This document shows positions 7,377 to 62,766 of a stretch of 64,000 nucleotides of DNA, piece by piece. The stretch is from assembly GCA_048885525.1 (NCBI GenBank), contig JBHLLP010000016.1:8458-72457 (forward strand). The letters are read 5' to 3'. Source of the DNA: Candidatus Hermodarchaeota archaeon (GTDB taxonomy: Archaea; Asgardarchaeota; Lokiarchaeia; Sigyniarchaeales; SOKP01). Positions within the stretch are counted from its first letter, which is position 1. Each line of letters begins with the position of its first letter. A program made the translations under genes and the position numbers. The notes under the pieces are model-generated. The model saw nothing but the letters and a program-made list of their open reading frames with translations, was not told the origin of the DNA and ran no database searches.

Positions 7377-10349
7377 TTGACAACTCAAGACCCATTAGAT
7401 CATCAAGAATCATTAGACACTGAAAAAATTGAGAGCTTAATTTTAAATGGGTATAATGAAAAAGCTGCTGAAGAAATTTTTACTATTGTAGAAAATTATG
7501 ATAATCATTCTGATAAAGAACTTATTTATCGAAGCCTTAGTTTATTAAATCTGATTTGTGATAAATCTCCAGCAATTTCATTGAGAGCAATCAAAAATAT
7601 AATTCATTTTATAAATGATTCTGATTCTTGGATAAGATTAGTTTCATTAGAAATATCATATCAAATAAGTTTGTTTAGACCTAACTTGTTACTTGAGTTA
7701 TTACCTAAAATTCGAGGAAGATTATATGATCAAGACCCCGCCGTGAGGAGATTAACTGTAAAGATCATTGGTAATCTGATTTTATCCTTACATATCGATT
7801 TGGGAGAAATACAGGAAATTATTGAAGAATATACAGAAAAATTAATGGATAATGATTGGAAAGTAAAGCTCAATGTAATCAAAACTATTCAGAAGATCTT
7901 AAATCAGGATTATAAAAAAATTAGGAATTTAGAACCATTATTATCAATGGTGATCATTAATTTAAGAGACGAAGATGATGATGTTGCTAGAGCTGCAGCA
8001 GAACTTTTAAAGATTCATGGGACATACTTTTTGACAAAGGAAAAGATCCTTTATATTTTATTAAATCTTCTCTATAACGAGGAAAATAGGGTTAAAGAGC
8101 TAATTATTTGGTTATTTGGAGAAATTGGAAAGGAAAAATCTCCAGAAATTATATCAATAATTCCAAAATTAATTAATTTACTAAAAGAAAAAGATTATCG
8201 TATTCAATTAAAAGTAATTGAAGCACTTGTTAATATTGGTGAAAATAATTTTGATCAAATTTGGGCAAATCTTATACATTCCATTTTAGAAGCCAGTGAT
8301 TACAATTATAGAAATTCATTAATAAATGCAATATTTCATCTATCCCGGAAGAATATAACTGAAATATTTCCTTATTTATTTGAAGAACTGGAAAATCCAT
8401 CTGAAAACATCAGAGAAGGTATTGCTCTTGTATTTCAACGCTTATTCGAAGAGTACCAGATTGAATTAGAAAATGAAATTACTAAAATTTTATATCAATT
8501 AGATTCACGTTTTTGGAGAGAAAGAAAAAAAACTATAAATCTCCTCCAACATATTTGTTTCATTTTGGAAAATAAAAAGATTGCTGTCTGGATTACAATT
8601 GAATTAAACAATACTTTAAATATTGAAAAGGATCCAGAAGTGAAAGCAGAAATTATTTATACACTAAAGAATATTAAATCTAATTTTCCAGATATTGATG
8701 GAGCTATCGAAAGAATCAATAATGAATTATCACTATTTCAGAAAAGAATTAACGAGTTCCAGAAGATTCCTGCCCAATTTAGAGAAAAACTGAATTCTTA
8801 TATAGAAAATTTCAAATTTAATGATACAGAGATTCAGTTAAATGAAAAATACAATAAAATATTGAAAAAAATCAAAAAATTCTCATTATTAATTAATAGA
8901 TTTGAATACAAAAGGTTAGCTTTTGATTTAATCGAAGAATGGGAAGAAACTAGGGTTCAAATAATTGAAGAATTAAGTATTATTAAAGGCTTCATCTCTG
9001 AAATATGTGAAGAGAAAAAAGCCGAATTTGTTTCTAATTTAAAAGAAAATATTAAGAAAATAAATAATCGTATTGATGTTCTAAAAGCAGAATTTGATTA
9101 TGTGAAAGAAACTAAGTTTGAAGTTAATCTAGGCAAACGTTTGTCTACACTTGGATCTGATTATATTCAAGAAGATAACCTGGACAATATCACCCAAATT
9201 AGAAAAAAACTGTTCAAAATGGATGGTGATATCAGAGAAATATTGATAGCAAATGTAGAGTTTAATGAGATATTTAAAAACCTATTACAAAAATGGGTTG
9301 CAACTAAAATTGAAATCCAAGAATATTTGAATGATTTAGATCATCAAATTAGATTAATGAAAGATAAATTAATTGAATATAAAGAAGTAGAACCTATAAG
9401 TAATATTCAGATTAGATCGAAAATGATTAATGGGATTAGTTCTGAACTTAATTTTCAACTCCTTCAAAGTCATATTCAGACTATTATTACAGAGAGAATT
9501 GAAGGAATGAAAAAATACAATGATGAATTTAGTGATCTTATTTCTAAACTAGACCTTTTATTAAAAAAAGATGAATTTTCAGATGTTAAGAAATTAGTAG
9601 AAATGAATTCAACACAAATTCAAAATTATATTGAAGATACTGAAAAACAAATTAATAATATCATAGGAAATGAAAAATTATTTGAAGATAATAATATTTT
9701 TAATTTATATATAAGACCTTATATCAATAAGTTTAATTCATCTAAAGAATTATTGATAAATCGATTAAAAACATTCAATAGAAAAGCTAAAAATAAACTT
9801 TACCTAAATCAGTTAAAATACTACGCGAAAATTCTGAATCCGATTAAACTTGATTTATTATCATCTTATATTGACTTAGATATTGAGCGATTAAAAGATC
9901 TTATTCTAAAATTTATAAATAAAAATAAAATCAGTGCAAAAGTAATTAATGACAAACTTTACTTTCAGCAGATAGAATCTGAAATGCCAGATTCAAAAGA
10001 AATTCTCTTTTTTAAAAATATAAAGACGATAGGTAACGAAATTTACCTAAACTTTAAATTATCTAATCCATCAAATTTTGATTTCAAGGATTTACAAATA
10101 TCTCTTAAGATACCCTCTTATCTTAATTTTCAAAGAAAAGAAAGCTTTCCAAAATATCTACAAATAAATGAGTTAAAACCAGGGAAAAATTTCCAATTCA
10201 ATTATGTGCTTAAAGTAGATAAACAAAAAGAACTTAAAAAAAATCTTTTTGATCCTTCAGCTGATGAAATTAAGCTTGACTTGTATTATAGAGATCAATT
10301 CAATATTGCTCGGAAGACGACTAAACATATTGATCTCTTCATTCCTTAA
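7377..10349 (+). CDS. HEAT-repeat protein with coiled-coil, PCI-like winged helix and C-terminal Ig-like domain
   Basis: Many 'L.D.D..VR' HEAT units in the first ~430 aa, a helical middle region, 'LSSYIDLDIERLKDLILKFINKNKISAKV' (PCI-like) and a beta-rich C-terminus. Confidence 0.75.
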   Translation: MTTQDPLDHQESLDTEKIESLILNGYNEKAAEEIFTIVENYDNHSDKELIYRSLSLLNLICDKSPAISLRAIKNIIHFINDSDSWIRLVSLEISYQISLFRPNLLLELLPKIRGRLYDQDPAVRRLTVKIIGNLILSLHIDLGEIQEIIEEYTEKLMDNDWKVKLNVIKTIQKILNQDYKKIRNLEPLLSMVIINLRDEDDDVARAAAELLKIHGTYFLTKEKILYILLNLLYNEENRVKELIIWLFGEIGKEKSPEIISIIPKLINLLKEKDYRIQLKVIEALVNIGENNFDQIWANLIHSILEASDYNYRNSLINAIFHLSRKNITEIFPYLFEELENPSENIREGIALVFQRLFEEYQIELENEITKILYQLDSRFWRERKKTINLLQHICFILENKKIAVWITIELNNTLNIEKDPEVKAEIIYTLKNIKSNFPDIDGAIERINNELSLFQKRINEFQKIPAQFREKLNSYIENFKFNDTEIQLNEKYNKILKKIKKFSLLINRFEYKRLAFDLIEEWEETRVQIIEELSIIKGFISEICEEKKAEFVSNLKENIKKINNRIDVLKAEFDYVKETKFEVNLGKRLSTLGSDYIQEDNLDNITQIRKKLFKMDGDIREILIANVEFNEIFKNLLQKWVATKIEIQEYLNDLDHQIRLMKDKLIEYKEVEPISNIQIRSKMINGISSELNFQLLQSHIQTIITERIEGMKKYNDEFSDLISKLDLLLKKDEFSDVKKLVEMNSTQIQNYIEDTEKQINNIIGNEKLFEDNNIFNLYIRPYINKFNSSKELLINRLKTFNRKAKNKLYLNQLKYYAKILNPIKLDLLSSYIDLDIERLKDLILKFINKNKISAKVINDKLYFQQIESEMPDSKEILFFKNIKTIGNEIYLNFKLSNPSNFDFKDLQISLKIPSYLNFQRKESFPKYLQINELKPGKNFQFNYVLKVDKQKELKKNLFDPSADEIKLDLYYRDQFNIARKTTKHIDLFIP

Positions 10350-10497
10350 AATAACAAGATTTTTGATTGAATTTTTTCATTAATTAATCTCAAATATTCA
10401 AAAATTTAATAATTTATATGGAAAAGATTAATATATCCATCTATACTATTTAAAACTACTTAAATTGATTAATATAATTACAAGAATGAGGTGAAGA

Positions 10498-11563
10498 ATG
10501 CAAGAATTAGAGAGTTATCGATTGACACTGCAAACGAAACTTTTTGGTTGAAACTGTCTCAGTTACACTTGCGACGGCAACATACTGTAAGCTTTTTAGC
10601 GAGAAATTAGAGAAACTACTTGCCAATACAGGATTAAATGGTGATATTGAAGATTCCGCAATTATTCCTGTACCAAATACTAATCTTGTCATGGCTAAAA
10701 ATATAGATATCTTTACTCCAATTATAGATGAACCAGATATCATGGGAGAAATTGCCGCAGCTAATGTTACTAACGATATTTCCGCGCTAAATGTTCCCGA
10801 AATTTCTGGAATGCTTGTTTTCCTAGGATTAAAGAAAAAAATGCCTATGTACATAGCAGAAGGAATACTAAAGGGAATCAAAAACTTTATGGAAAACAAG
10901 TTAAATTCTAAAATTCTTGGAGGTCATACTATTTTCAGCCAATGGCCATTGATTGGGGGCGAAGCCTCTGGTTTCGTTGAAAAGGATAAAATTATCAAAA
11001 AAGATTATGTAGAAGAAGGAGATAAAATAATTCTAACAAAACCAATTGGAAATCAAGCAATAATGGCAGCATACAGACTTCAAAAAAACAATCCTGACCT
11101 TTTAGAATCTTATTCTACAACCGAAATTGACACTTCTATCGATATAGCTGTGAAATTAATGATATCACCCCTTCAAGATGTTGTAAAGACCATTCACACT
11201 TACAAAGATATGTCATTCATTCATTCGATGACAGATGTTAGTGGTTTTGGTCTTGCTGGGCATCTGAGAGAAATGCTTCAAAATTCAGGTCTTTCTGCTA
11301 TAATTGAGAAGATCCCTAGTATTAGACTGACAAGCGACTTAGCTTATGAATTTGGTTATAAATATGATGAATGTGAAATGCCTGAAACTGCTGGGGGGAT
11401 GCTTTTATCTGTTGATCACGAATATGCTGAGGAATTCTCACAGAGACTTAATAGTAAATATGGCGTAAAAAATTGGACTGTAGGTACGATCGATAACATC
11501 AATAAGCCCAAATATGTTCGTGTTTCTGAAAATGTTGAACATATTGAAATAACTAAAATTTAA
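10498..11563 (+). CDS. selD: Selenophosphate synthetase (selenoprotein, Sec18), split by a 31-nt BHB intron: join(10498..10552,10584..11563), 344 aa
   Basis: SD GAGGTGA precedes ATG 10498. Exon 1 reads MQELESYRLTLQTKLFG-TGA(10549-51). After intron removal the sequence continues N-C-K-L..., collinear with the second selD. It has DIFTPIIDEP, AAANVTND, GGHT, LTKPIG and TDVSGFGL.GH motifs and a 3' SECIS. Confidence 0.92.
10553..10583 (+). other. Bulge-helix-bulge (EndA-type) intron in selD mRNA
   Basis: Central helix GTTG(10547-50)/CAAC(10578-81), 3-nt bulges AAA(10551-53) and ATA(10582-84), inner helix CTGTC/GACGG and outer pair G10546-C10585. Cutting after the second nucleotide of each bulge removes 31 nt and restores the frame. 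Confidence 0.88.
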
Positions 11564-11635
11564 CGATGTCAATGAAATAAGCAAAAACACATTATTGTGG
11601 TAGTTTATTGAGAATACTGTTGCAAAACAGCATCG
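11564..11635 (+). promoter_or_regulatory. Eukaryote-like SECIS element (3' UTR of selD-1)
   Basis: ATGA(11572-75)-AATAAGC-AAAAA-CAC..GTG-GTA-GTTTATT-GA(11610-11): AUGA/GA core, upper stem, unpaired A run and apical ministem. Confidence 0.88.
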
Positions 11636-12069: not shown

Positions 12070-13095
12070 ATGGAAAAACCAGAGTATAGGCTGACCCTAG
12101 ACGTTAAGATACACGGATGATCATGTAAGCTTGGACAAAACGATTTGAATGACTTATTAGTTAGAGTAGGATTAGCAGGAGACATTGAAGATGCTGCTAT
12201 TATACCAATACCTAATAGCGATCTGGTTCTTGTTAAAAATATCGATGTTTTCACACCAATTATTGATGAACCCGAACTCGCTGGTGAAATTGCGGCATGC
12301 AATGTAACTAATGACATTTTTGCGATGAATGTGCCTGAGATTTCAGGTATGCTTGTATTTCTTGCAATTAGTACAAGAACACCCATGGAAGTTGCCGAAG
12401 GTATTTTAAGAGGAATAAAGTATTTTATGGAGAAAAAAATTAATTCTCGAGTGGTTGGTGGACACACGATTTATAGTGAATGGCCATTAATAGGAGGAGA
12501 AGCATCTGGATATGTCGAAAAAAGTGCTATTATCCAAAAGCAAGGTGTAAAAAAAGGAGATAAATTAGTTTTAACCAAACCGATAGGATTGCAAGCAATA
12601 ATGGCATCATATAGGATTCTGAAAGATTTTCCAGAAATGTTAGAACACTATTCAGCTGAAGAACTTCAAAAGTCAATTGATCTTGCCATAAAAATTATGA
12701 CAACTCCAAATCAAGATGTTGTAAAAACTATTCATTCTTACAAGGATTTTTCATTCATTCATGCCCTAAGTGATATCACTGGATTTGGCTTAGGGGGACA
12801 TACGGCTGAAATGCTGCAAAACTCAAATCTATCAGCTATAATTGAGACTGTTCCATCAATTAAGTTTTCTGAACAGTTATCGCATGAGTTAGGGTATGCT
12901 TTTGATGATTGTAAGTGCCATGAAACTGCAGGGGGTATGCTCCTGGCTGTTGATCCTACAAAAGTTGAAGAATTTACAAATAGGCTTACAATTAATAAAA
13001 TATCAAACTGGATTATTGGTACAATTAATCAACAAAAACCAGGTTTGGTTCAGATTTCAGAGCAAGTTCAAAACATTGAAATTACAGAAATTTAA
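12070..13095 (+). CDS. selD: Selenophosphate synthetase (selenoprotein, Sec17), intronless paralog, 341 aa
   Basis: SD GAGGTGA precedes ATG 12070. It reads MEKPEYRLTLDVKIHG-TGA(12118-20)-SCKL, in frame with ORF 12145..13095, giving a UxxK active-site motif. A 3' SECIS is present. Confidence 0.95.
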
Positions 13096-60810: not shown

Positions 60811-62766
60811 ATGGACCCAAATAACAAGAATATCATTATTGATTTTGAACCAATTTCCAGAAGATTAATTTTTTCTGATGATTACTCCCTTTATGAAGCT
60901 CTTTCAGAGTTAAATGTACCAATAACTTCAATATGTGGGGGTTTAGGATCATGCGGAAAATGTAAGGTTTTAGTTCAAAAGGGAAAAGAGTATCTGATTA
61001 ATCCAACTGCTTCTGAAAGAAAATTTTTGAGTAATAATGAAATTGAAAATGGATGGCGTCTAGCTTGTCAAACTAAAATTGATATTATTAATAAACCACT
61101 TCTTAAAACACTGAAACCTCCTCATTTTCGCATTTTCTTACCTGATGAATTTTTACTTGAAGACTTTAACATTCTAACCTCTGGTATAAGCAAAGGAATA
61201 AAACTTAACCCCACTATTAAGAAAATTTTTATTGATGTAAAAAAACCATCATTACAGGAACCTAATGCCGATTTTGAAAGGATTAATTATGCAATTCTCT
61301 CCAAAGATCTCGAATTAAGGAGAAATCTTAAACTTGGAATAGATTTTAAAGTCTTAAATAAAATTCCAACGCTCCTTAGAGAAAATCAGCATAAAATTAC
61401 GGTAGTATTATGGAATAATACTAAAATTATCAATTGTGAACCAGGTAATACACTTGAAGAGAATTTTGGAATTGCGTTTGACATCGGGACTACCACAATA
61501 GTTGGCTATCTAATAAATTTAAATAATGGAAAAATTTATGCTGTTGATTCAAAACTTAATAGTCAAACAGCCTATGGAGAGGATTTAATAACTCGATTAA
61601 CATTAATAAAAGAAAGTGAAGATAATCTTGAAAAATTGAATTCTGTTGTATTAAATGATCTGAATCAAATAATCAAAAATCTATGTGACAAGGCACTTAT
61701 TAAACCTTCTCAGATTTATGAAGCTACTGTTGTAGGAAATTCTGTTATGCATCATATTTTTTTAGGTTTAAATCCTGTGAATATCGGATTAAGTCCCTTT
61801 ATTCCAGTTATCCAAAAAGCTTTGAATAATAAAGCGGAATATCTAAACCTTAATATTTTAAATAATGGGAATGTCTATACAGCACCGATAATAGCAGGAT
61901 TTGTAGGAGCAGATACTATTGGTGTAATCCTCTCCTCACAAATATTTAATGAAAAGAAGCTTACTTTAGCAATTGATATTGGAACTAATGGAGAAATTAT
62001 TATAGGAAATCGTAAAATTCTAGCAGTAGGTTCATGTGCCGCGGGATCTGCTTTAGAAGGAGCTCATATTGAGGATGGTATGAGGGCTGCCGCAGGAGCT
62101 ATTGATAAAATTAAGATTGATCATAAAAATTATGAGGTATCTTATACTACAATTAAAAATAAGAAACCAATAGGTATATGTGGTTCAGGATTAGTTGATG
62201 CGATAGCTGAAATGTTAAAAGCCAAAATTATTACAAGAAGTGGTAATTTCAATCGAGAACTAACAGATCATGAAAGATTCATTAAAAAAGATAAAAAATT
62301 AGAATTTATTATCGCCAAAAAAGAAGAAACTGCTTTAGATAAGGATATAAGAATTAGCCAAAATGATGTTAGGCAAATTCAAATGGCAAAAGCAGCATTT
62401 TATTCTGGATCACGAATTATTCTGAATAATTTAAAGAATAACTTAAAAATTGAACAAATTTTTCTTGCAGGTGCTTTTGGGAACTACATTAATGCTAATA
62501 ATGCTAAATTTATTGGAATGATTCCTGACATTCATGATGATAAGATTTTTCAGATAGGAAATGCAGCAGGAATTGGAGCCCAACATTGTTTATTGAATAA
62601 AAATTTACGAAATAAAGCGCAAAAGTTGCTAAATAATATTCACTATATCGAAATTGCTGTGGATAAGAGATTTCAAAAAGAATATGCTGAAGCCATGTAT
62701 TTTCCTCATTTAAATCTAGATTATTTTCCGAGTTTACACCTCTATAAAGAGATCCCCAAACGGTAA
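60811..62766 (+). CDS. Reductive activator of corrinoid proteins (RACo/AcsV/RamA-like ASKHA ATPase with 2Fe-2S domain)
   Basis: CGGLGSCGKCKV...RLACQ, DIGTTT, GFVGAD, DIGTNGE, AAGSALEG, GICGSG and LAGAFG motifs; start set to ATG 60811. Confidence 0.92.
   Translation: MDPNNKNIIIDFEPISRRLIFSDDYSLYEALSELNVPITSICGGLGSCGKCKVLVQKGKEYLINPTASERKFLSNNEIENGWRLACQTKIDIINKPLLKTLKPPHFRIFLPDEFLLEDFNILTSGISKGIKLNPTIKKIFIDVKKPSLQEPNADFERINYAILSKDLELRRNLKLGIDFKVLNKIPTLLRENQHKITVVLWNNTKIINCEPGNTLEENFGIAFDIGTTTIVGYLINLNNGKIYAVDSKLNSQTAYGEDLITRLTLIKESEDNLEKLNSVVLNDLNQIIKNLCDKALIKPSQIYEATVVGNSVMHHIFLGLNPVNIGLSPFIPVIQKALNNKAEYLNLNILNNGNVYTAPIIAGFVGADTIGVILSSQIFNEKKLTLAIDIGTNGEIIIGNRKILAVGSCAAGSALEGAHIEDGMRAAAGAIDKIKIDHKNYEVSYTTIKNKKPIGICGSGLVDAIAEMLKAKIITRSGNFNRELTDHERFIKKDKKLEFIIAKKEETALDKDIRISQNDVRQIQMAKAAFYSGSRIILNNLKNNLKIEQIFLAGAFGNYINANNAKFIGMIPDIHDDKIFQIGNAAGIGAQHCLLNKNLRNKAQKLLNNIHYIEIAVDKRFQKEYAEAMYFPHLNLDYFPSLHLYKEIPKR

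What the first reader, a model, noticed from the sequence alone, without database searches (positions are those of the whole stretch)
10540..10595. Canonical bulge-helix-bulge intron inside a selenoprotein mRNA, one base after the Sec codon of selD
Seen: the first selD looks frameshifted, and alignment to the neighbouring paralog (HG-U-SCKL) shows a precise 31-nt insertion, ACTGTCTCAGTTACACTTGCGACGGCAACAT. The pre-mRNA folds into a BHB with 4-bp helix GUUG/CAAC, 3-nt bulges AAA and AUA, and inner helix CUGUC/GACGG. Cutting after the second nucleotide of each bulge yields GGT TGA A|AC TGT AAG = G-U-N-C-K, the intact UxxK active site. Of the six registers allowed by the flanking ACTGT repeat, only this one forms a fully paired central helix. 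The SD, downstream ORF and SECIS are all intact, which argues against a pseudogene. Established: EndA cleaves BHB motifs and RtcB ligates them; the best-known protein-coding example is crenarchaeal cbf5. Inference: this is mRNA splicing by the tRNA-splicing machinery in an Asgard archaeon, combined with Sec recoding in the same gene. I know of no description of this for selD.
Basis: partly seen in the sequence, partly recalled or inferred. Interest (0 to 1): 0.96.

Follow-up and report, generated by a model that had tools for sequence, protein, structure and literature searches.

The report
tRNA-type mini-intron in Asgard selD
The 31 extra bases that seem to break the first selenophosphate synthetase gene of this Asgard archaeon are most likely a tRNA-type intron, cut out of the mRNA one base after the selenocysteine codon, which papers describe for only one other archaeal protein gene (cbf5).

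Summary
selD1 (ATG 10498, Sec codon 10549-10551) carries 31 extra bases (10553-10583) that about 60 orthologs lack. Of the six equivalent cut registers, only the one ending exon 1 at 10552 gives a 4-bp Watson-Crick central helix, two 3-nt bulges and a 5-bp inner helix. Removing the insert restores G-U-N-C-K.

Support:
- A second species (G021) has a different 31-nt insert at the same base, with a compensatory change in the central helix.
- dN/dS is about 0.10 for both interrupted genes, the same as for uninterrupted orthologs.
- The Shine-Dalgarno site, the 326-codon second exon and the 3' SECIS-like element are intact.
- A second assembly of the same species carries the same insert.
- The genome encodes two EndA paralogs and RtcB.
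- Two more 30/31-nt inserts of the same shape in this genome (AMP phosphorylase, JAMM) are present or precisely absent across the genus. The first shows strong covariation.

Caveats: the exon-exon outer helix is weak, so the motif is relaxed rather than strictly canonical. Only two species carry this insert. No RNA data could be obtained.

This scan has already flagged BHB-type inserts in selD of other Asgard genomes at other positions. I found no paper describing any. Best reading: a new member of the cbf5-type mRNA introns, confidence about 0.8.

The parts
10488..10493 (+). Shine-Dalgarno GAGGTG of selD1
   Evidence: Read directly. The same motif is conserved upstream of all orthologs.
10498..10552 (+). 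selD1 exon 1: ATG to the first base of the Asn codon. It contains the Sec codon TGA at 10549-10551.
   Evidence: Orthologs read M-Q-E-L-E-S-Y-R-L-T-L-Q-T-K-L-F-G-U-N-C-K without interruption.
10547..10550 (+). 5' strand of the central 4-bp helix H (GUUG). It is made of the last two bases of the Gly codon and the first two of the Sec codon.
   Evidence: 4/4 Watson-Crick pairs with 10578-10581; it covaries with G021.
10551..10553 (+). 5' bulge AAA. The predicted cut lies between 10552 and 10553.
   Evidence: The rule of cutting after the second bulge nucleotide is as stated for cbf5 in PMC2738675.
10553..10583 (+). 31-nt BHB-type intron
   Evidence: Absent from about 60 orthologs. Present identically in a second assembly, GCA_048938225.1. 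Unique in the genome.
10554..10577 (+). Intron hairpin h': CUGUC (10554-10558) pairs with GACGG (10573-10577). A 1x1 mismatch and 3 more pairs extend it.
10578..10581 (+). 3' strand of the central helix H (CAAC)
10582..10584 (+). 3' bulge AUA. The predicted cut lies between 10583 and 10584.
10584..11563 (+). selD1 exon 2, to the stop at 11561-11563. It encodes the AIRS and AIRS_C domains.
   Evidence: open frame. (Pfam AIRS/AIRS_C; NCBIfam TIGR00476 selD 156 bits against a cut-off of 125). (dN/dS about 0.10).
11564..11635 (+). Conserved SECIS-like 3' UTR element of selD1
   Evidence: aligned across 19 species with a consensus fold. It is intact in G000 and G021.
12070..13095 (+). selD2, the uninterrupted paralog (TGA 12118-12120), used for comparison

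Best explanation
Bases 10553-10583 are an archaeal bulge-helix-bulge (tRNA-type) intron inside the selD1 coding sequence.

In the pre-mRNA, GUUG pairs with CAAC near the 3' end of the insert. GUUG is the end of the Gly codon plus the first two bases of the Sec codon UGA. This pairing sets out two 3-nt bulges on opposite strands, and a hairpin inside the insert closes the inner side.

The splicing endonuclease would cut after the second base of each bulge; this genome has a catalytic and a probably structural EndA paralog, which suggests a heterotetramer (subunit assembly is inferred from the literature, not tested here). RtcB would then join the exons. The result is GGU UGA AAC UGU AAG, that is G-U-N-C-K, the active-site loop found in all uninterrupted orthologs. 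The Sec codon is then decoded with the help of the 3' SECIS-like element.

Shown here: the anatomy, the unique register, the in-frame product, the comparative pattern, purifying selection and the presence of the enzymes. Inferred: the cleavage, the ligation and any circular intron.
For: 1. Only one of six equivalent registers forms the motif, and that register gives the ortholog consensus product.
2. G021, a different species, has an insert of the same length at the same base with only 15/31 identical bases. Its central helix is GCUG/CAGU: one pair changed on both sides (U-A to C-G), one changed to a wobble, and all 14 scored cells are paired against 21-64% in slid controls. Its inner hairpin is 9 bp with one bulged base.
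3. About 60 orthologs lack the insert precisely.
4. dN/dS is 0.10 for G000 and 0.05-0.10 for G021, against 0.08-0.10 among uninterrupted orthologs, at dS of about 0.6.
5. The SD, the 326-codon exon 2 and the SECIS-like element are intact.
6. The same insert is present in a second assembly that differs by 1 SNP in 4020 bases.
7. The genome has two EndA paralogs, each with the N-terminal and catalytic domains: one keeps the Tyr-His-Lys pattern and the other lacks the His. It also has RtcB.
8. In the same genome, the 30-nt AMP phosphorylase insert is present in 18 of 30 species and precisely absent in 12. It is 97.4% paired against 31-44% when slid, and 7 pairs change on both sides.
9. The JAMM 31-nt insert is present in 11 of 30 species.
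10. A 30-nt BHB insert sits in selD2 of G014 and G069.
Against: Only two species carry this insert, so covariation rests on one double change and cannot be tested statistically (247/500 shuffles). The outer exon-exon helix is a single G-C pair followed by a mismatch. The BHB fold is 3.8 kcal/mol (G000) and 5.3 kcal/mol (G021) above the MFE. An uninterrupted paralog (selD2) lies next door and could cover for a broken selD1. Archaeal transcription and translation are coupled, so splicing 55 nt into the ORF has to compete with ribosomes.
Confidence: 0.8

Rival explanations
1. selD1 is a recently inactivated pseudogene. A 31-bp insertion with a 5-bp duplicated flank (ACTGT) broke the frame, and selD2 supplies the function.
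For: The insert is flanked by a 5-bp direct repeat. An uninterrupted paralog lies 500 bp downstream. Only 2 of about 60 orthologs carry an insert. Some species of the genus have no selD1 at all.
Against: The rest of the gene has no other lesion and dN/dS is 0.10, the same as for uninterrupted orthologs. The SD and SECIS-like element are conserved. A second species has an insert of the same length at the same base that also forms the motif, which two independent inactivating events would not be expected to give. By chance the motif is expected in about 1.6e-3 of cases.
Confidence: 0.1
2. The insert stays in the mRNA and the ribosome deals with it. Either a translational hop runs from the Cys codon TGT at 10555 to the identical TGT at 10586, or a +1 frameshift occurs inside the insert.
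For: In G000 the ACTGT repeat provides matching take-off and landing codons, and a hop would give the same G-U-N-C-K protein.
Against: G021 has no flanking repeat and no matching codons. Its +1 frame contains a TAA inside the insert, and the Asn codon exists only after excision. A frameshift would put 10-11 unrelated residues between Sec and Cys-Lys in the catalytic loop, and these residues would differ between the two species. What is conserved is the RNA pairing, not any peptide or slippery site.
Confidence: 0.04
3. The insert is an assembly or binning artefact. Sequence similarity to other species changes around selD1, which could point to a chimeric contig.
For: Sliding-window identity shows that the selD1 CDS of G000 is closest to G010/G015/G023, while the flanks are closest to G005/G008/G021.
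Against: A second assembly with different contig ends and one SNP has the identical insert. Whether that assembly came from independent reads is not known. An unrelated MAG (G021) has its own insert at the same base. The insert matches nothing else in the genome and folds into the motif.
Confidence: 0.03

Closest known systems
cbf5 pre-mRNA BHB intron of Crenarchaeota (Watanabe 2002; Yoshinari 2006; Yokobori 2009, PMC2738675)
   Same: A short insert (16-44 bp in cbf5) inside a coding sequence at a catalytic-site codon. It has a relaxed BHB with cuts after the second bulge base, occurs in a host with a hetero-oligomeric EndA, and shows lineage-specific presence and absence among close relatives.
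   Different: Different phylum (Asgard/Promethearchaeota) and different gene (selD). The insert sits one base after a selenocysteine codon, so the UGA is part of the motif. It is present in only 2 of about 60 orthologs, not ancestrally. It is one of several such inserts in the same genome. Splicing has been shown by cDNA for cbf5 but not here.
[quoted passage not shown]
   Same: The same motif and presumably the same enzymes. Gains are patchy and repeated among close relatives. Two EndA paralogs are reported in most Asgard genomes.
   Different: The host RNA here is an mRNA, with no tRNA body to help recognition. Removal must be exact to the base to keep the reading frame.
HVO_1309 5' UTR BHB intron of Haloferax volcanii (PMC7714728)
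   Same: An mRNA processed by the tRNA splicing endonuclease.
   Different: That intron lies in the untranslated leader, not in the coding sequence.
IRE1/RtcB splicing of XBP1/HAC1 mRNA in eukaryotes (from my own knowledge, not checked here)
   Same: A short frame-changing intron (26 nt in XBP1) removed from an mRNA by a non-spliceosomal endonuclease and joined by RtcB.
   Different: The endonuclease is IRE1 acting on paired stem-loops under stress control. No homology or regulation is implied here.

Membership tests
Archaeal BHB (EndA-type) intron | Central helix of exactly 4 bp | tested here: met
   GUUG/CAAC is 4/4 Watson-Crick in G000. GCUG/CAGU is 3 Watson-Crick pairs plus 1 G-U in G021.
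Archaeal BHB (EndA-type) intron | Two 3-nt bulges on opposite strands flanking that helix, with cuts after the second base of each giving the mature RNA | tested here: met
   Bulges are AAA and AUA in G000, AAU and AUA in G021. The cuts give G-U-N-C-K in frame, identical to the orthologs. The cleavage rule is as in PMC2738675.
Archaeal BHB (EndA-type) intron | Inner helix h' closing the 5' bulge | tested here: met
   5 bp, then a 1x1 mismatch, then 3 bp in G000. 9 bp with one bulged base in G021.
Archaeal BHB (EndA-type) intron | Outer exon-exon helix h closing the 3' bulge (strict hBHBh') | tested here: not met
   One G-C pair followed by a U.U mismatch in both species. The motif is therefore the relaxed HBh'/BHL class, which papers say needs a broad-specificity EndA.
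Archaeal BHB (EndA-type) intron | Host encodes a splicing endonuclease able to cut relaxed motifs, and an RtcB ligase | tested here: inconclusive
   Two EndA paralogs (198 and 205 aa, each with PF02778 and PF01974) and one RtcB are present. Subunit assembly and substrate range were not tested.
Archaeal BHB (EndA-type) intron | Precise presence or absence among orthologs, with pairing kept by compensatory change | tested here: met
   2 orthologs with the insert and about 60 without. One double change in H. The sample of two is too small for statistics.
Archaeal BHB (EndA-type) intron | Spliced RNA and excised or circular intron observed | not testable with these tools
Selenophosphate synthetase SelD (selenoprotein form) | SelD family model above its cut-off, AIRS and AIRS_C domains | tested here: met
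   TIGR00476 scores 156 bits (cut-off 125) for exon 2. PF00586 and PF02769 both match.
Selenophosphate synthetase SelD (selenoprotein form) | N-terminal G-(U/C)-x-C-K loop and a SECIS element | tested here: met
   The loop is restored only after removal of 10553-10583. The conserved 3' element lies at 11564-11635.

The most novel reading that the evidence does not exclude
This genus of Loki-type Asgard archaea carries a dynamic population of uniform 30-31-nt BHB micro-introns in many protein-coding genes, often inside catalytic motifs. They are still being gained: the selD1 site next to the Sec codon would have been hit twice independently, in G000 and in G021. That would imply an active, site-selective route of intron insertion into mRNA genes, for example reversal of the EndA/RtcB reaction followed by reverse transcription and recombination.
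Probability: 0.2. Interest if true: 0.9.

Novelty: new member of a known kind. Interest (0 to 1): 0.76.

Why it matters
In the searchable literature up to 2026, cbf5 of Crenarchaeota is the only archaeal protein gene described with a tRNA-type intron in its coding sequence. [quoted passage not shown] At least two other genes of the same genome are split in the same way, with presence and absence varying among species.

There are three consequences:
- Gene callers and selenoproteome surveys will record such genes as frameshifted or truncated.
- Making SelD1 needs both mRNA splicing and UGA recoding, and the UGA itself is part of the splice motif.
- The patchy distribution offers a tractable system for studying how introns enter and leave protein genes without a spliceosome.

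Tried and rejected
- Unconstrained folding does not return the BHB, and z is -0.3. I set this aside as uninformative, because the motif is small and protein-bound; the constrained fold is 3.8 kcal/mol above the MFE in G000 and 5.3 in G021.
- Rfam found nothing in the window at gathering thresholds.
- The metagenome and genome-collection scans found no further carrier of the selD1 insert.
- blastn of the insert against the genome found no other copy, so it is not a repeat family.
- My genome-wide scan for BHB sites whose removal restores an ORF had a high background, about 100 hits per intron length, mostly adjacent genes and Sec codons. Only the stringent hits could be interpreted.
- ARAGORN intron lengths were too noisy to use.
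- Gene trees did not settle one gain against two. selD1 exon 2 separates G000 and G021. selD2 joins them. The flanking DNA puts G000 near G005/G008/G021.
- I considered and rejected translation of the 339-aa +1 ORF from TTG 10544. It would lack the Sec/Cys residue, and that frame is closed in G021.

Full report
**What is there**

selD1 starts at ATG 10498, six bases after a GAGGTG Shine-Dalgarno site. It reads M-Q-E-L-E-S-Y-R-L-T-L-Q-T-K-L-F-G, then TGA at 10549-10551. Twelve codons later the frame hits TAA. The rest of the gene (326 codons, stop at 11561-11563) lies in the +1 frame. Exon 2 is a SelD: TIGR00476 scores 156 bits against a cut-off of 125, and the AIRS and AIRS_C domains are both present. 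The tandem paralog selD2 (12070-13095) reads H-G-U-S-C-K-L without a break.

**The insert is real and precise**

I collected selD1 from the 37 species of the genus that have it (54 were searched), from about 17 metagenome contigs, and from further species representatives. All but two read GGN TGA AAY/GAC TGY AAR without interruption. Compared with them, G000 has exactly 31 extra bases. Because ACTGT flanks the insert, six cut registers give the same product. Only the register that ends exon 1 at 10552 pairs the central helix 4/4 (GUUG 10547-10550 with CAAC 10578-10581). That register has bulges AAA (10551-10553) and AUA (10582-10584) and inner helix CUGUC/GACGG. The other registers pair 0-1 of 4. 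A motif of this quality at this length occurs at about 2.7e-4 of genome positions, or about 1.6e-3 over six registers.

The same 4 kb, including the insert, is present in a second assembly (GCA_048938225.1). That assembly has different contig ends and one SNP. Whether it was built from independent reads is not known.

**A second species**

G021 is a MAG deposited as isolate QM1B.7. It has a 31-nt insert at the same base, but only 15 of 31 bases are identical and there is no flanking repeat. Its central helix is GCUG/CAGU. Compared with G000, one pair changed on both sides (U-A to C-G), one became a G-U wobble, and two are unchanged. Its bulges are AAU and AUA. Its inner hairpin is 9 bp with one bulged base and a 5-nt loop. 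All 14 scored cells pair, against 21-64% when the 3' partner is slid. With two sequences this cannot be tested statistically.

In G021 the Asn codon of G-U-N-C-K exists only after excision, and the +1 frame is closed by a TAA inside the insert. That excludes a ribosomal hop or frameshift as a common mechanism.

**The gene is in use**

dN/dS between G000 selD1 and its nearest orthologs is 0.10 at dS of about 0.57. For G021 it is 0.05-0.10. Among uninterrupted orthologs it is 0.08-0.10. The 3' UTR element directly after the stop (11564-11635) is conserved across 19 species and intact in both carriers. It has the AUGA...GA core and the extra apical stem described for Loki-type selD SECIS in PMC4989117.

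**The machinery**

The genome (99% complete) has two EndA paralogs, each with the N-terminal and catalytic domains. One keeps the Tyr, His, Lys pattern; the other lacks the His. It also has one RtcB. Two paralogs are what the hetero-oligomeric endonuclease needs. Papers link that enzyme to relaxed motifs and to cbf5 mRNA splicing, and a 2026 preprint reports two paralogs in most Asgard genomes.

**Context in the same genome**

My own scan for BHB sites was noisy, but it recovered two clear cases.

- *AMP phosphorylase.* A 30-nt insert splits the D-K-H-S-T-G-G motif (G000 C6, exon 1 ends at 109043). It is present in 18 of 30 species and precisely absent in 12. On the 18 carriers the BHB structure is 97.4% paired, against 31-44% when slid. 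Seven pairs change on both sides, including two of the four central pairs.
- *JAMM protease.* A 31-nt insert splits the H-S-H-P...S-H-I-D motif (C7, exon 1 ends at 62561). It is present in 11 of 30 species and precisely absent in the rest.
- *selD2.* Two other species (G014, G069) carry a 30-nt BHB insert between W-P-L-I and G-G-E-A-S, with a 9-bp inner helix that shows a G-C to A-U compensatory change. The G069 insert contains an in-frame stop.

All these inserts share one build: 1 base, a stem of about 9 positions, a 5-6-nt loop, the return strand, 4 bases of H', and 2 bulge bases. First-stage notes of this scan list further candidates in this genome. I tested only the two above.

**History**

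The selD1 exon 2 tree puts G000 with uninterrupted G010/G015/G023 (support 98) and G021 with uninterrupted G046/G008 (support 99). The upstream gene, 20 kb of downstream DNA and a sliding-window comparison put G000 nearer to G005/G008/G021. The switch in similarity lies at about 10425-10500 and again at about 11350. selD2 joins G000 and G021. The locus is therefore mosaic. Either the site was hit twice, or one gain was followed by at least two precise losses and recombination. Once the positions forced by pairing are set aside, the two inserts are not clearly homologous. I cannot decide between these histories.

**What is not canonical**

The exon-exon outer helix is one G-C pair followed by U.U in both species. 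The motif is therefore the relaxed kind. Most cbf5 introns are also relaxed.

**Literature**

Papers from 2020 and 2025 still name cbf5 as the only coding-sequence example, alongside a 5' UTR intron in Haloferax. The two Asgard selenoproteome papers do not mention introns, frameshifts or pseudogenes in selD. One of them notes that many Loki and Thor genomes have two or more selD genes. The Asgard intron papers deal only with tRNA.

Within this scan, other agents have already reported BHB-type inserts in selD of other Asgard genomes at other positions. Those are unchecked notes. My selD2 observation in G014 and G069 matches two of them in kind.

**Verdict**

The one correction is that the motif is relaxed, not strictly canonical. 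The main gap is the lack of RNA evidence.

Noticed in passing
L026 (G014, minus strand, about 1854-1950 of the reverse complement) and L041:2779-2870 (G069): A 30-nt in-frame BHB insert in selD2, between the codons for W-P-L-I and G-G-E-A-S. The central helix is CCCU/AGGG or CCUU/GGGG. The 9-bp inner helix shows a G-C to A-U compensatory change. The G069 copy carries an in-frame TGA. It is absent from G000 selD2 and from the other 45 or so selD2 genes of the genus.
   Followed up: partly
G000 C6:109044-109073 (L103/L106): A 30-nt BHB insert splits the D-K-H-S-T-G-G motif of AMP phosphorylase. It is present in 18 of 30 species of the genus and precisely absent in 12, with strong covariation (97.4% paired, 7 pairs changed on both sides).
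   Followed up: yes
G000 C7:62562-62592 (L104/L137): A 31-nt BHB insert sits inside the JAMM metalloprotease motif, between H-S-H-P-G-F and K-V-M-M-S-H-I-D. It is present in 11 of 30 species and precisely absent in the others.
   Followed up: partly
G000 C7, minus strand, exon 1 ends at 104010 (L105): A further 30-nt candidate with a 9-bp inner helix. Its removal joins ...K-E-K-Y-W-D to W-G-S-G-D-I-L... in one frame.
   Followed up: no
window 10425-11350: The selD1 coding sequence of G000 is 85-95% identical to G010/G015/G023, while the flanks on both sides are closer to G005/G008/G021. This mosaic suggests recombination of the selD1 gene between species of the genus.
   Followed up: partly
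window 7377-10349: A 990-aa HEAT-repeat protein with weak Adaptin_N/Cnd1 hits lies directly upstream of selD1. It is syntenic across the genus and is a possible eukaryote-like trafficking or scaffold protein.
   Followed up: no
L056:1199-1300 (JABAHP010010606.1): One metagenomic selD2 reads G-U-S-V-K instead of G-U-S-C-K. This is either loss of the second Cys of the loop or a sequencing error.
   Followed up: no
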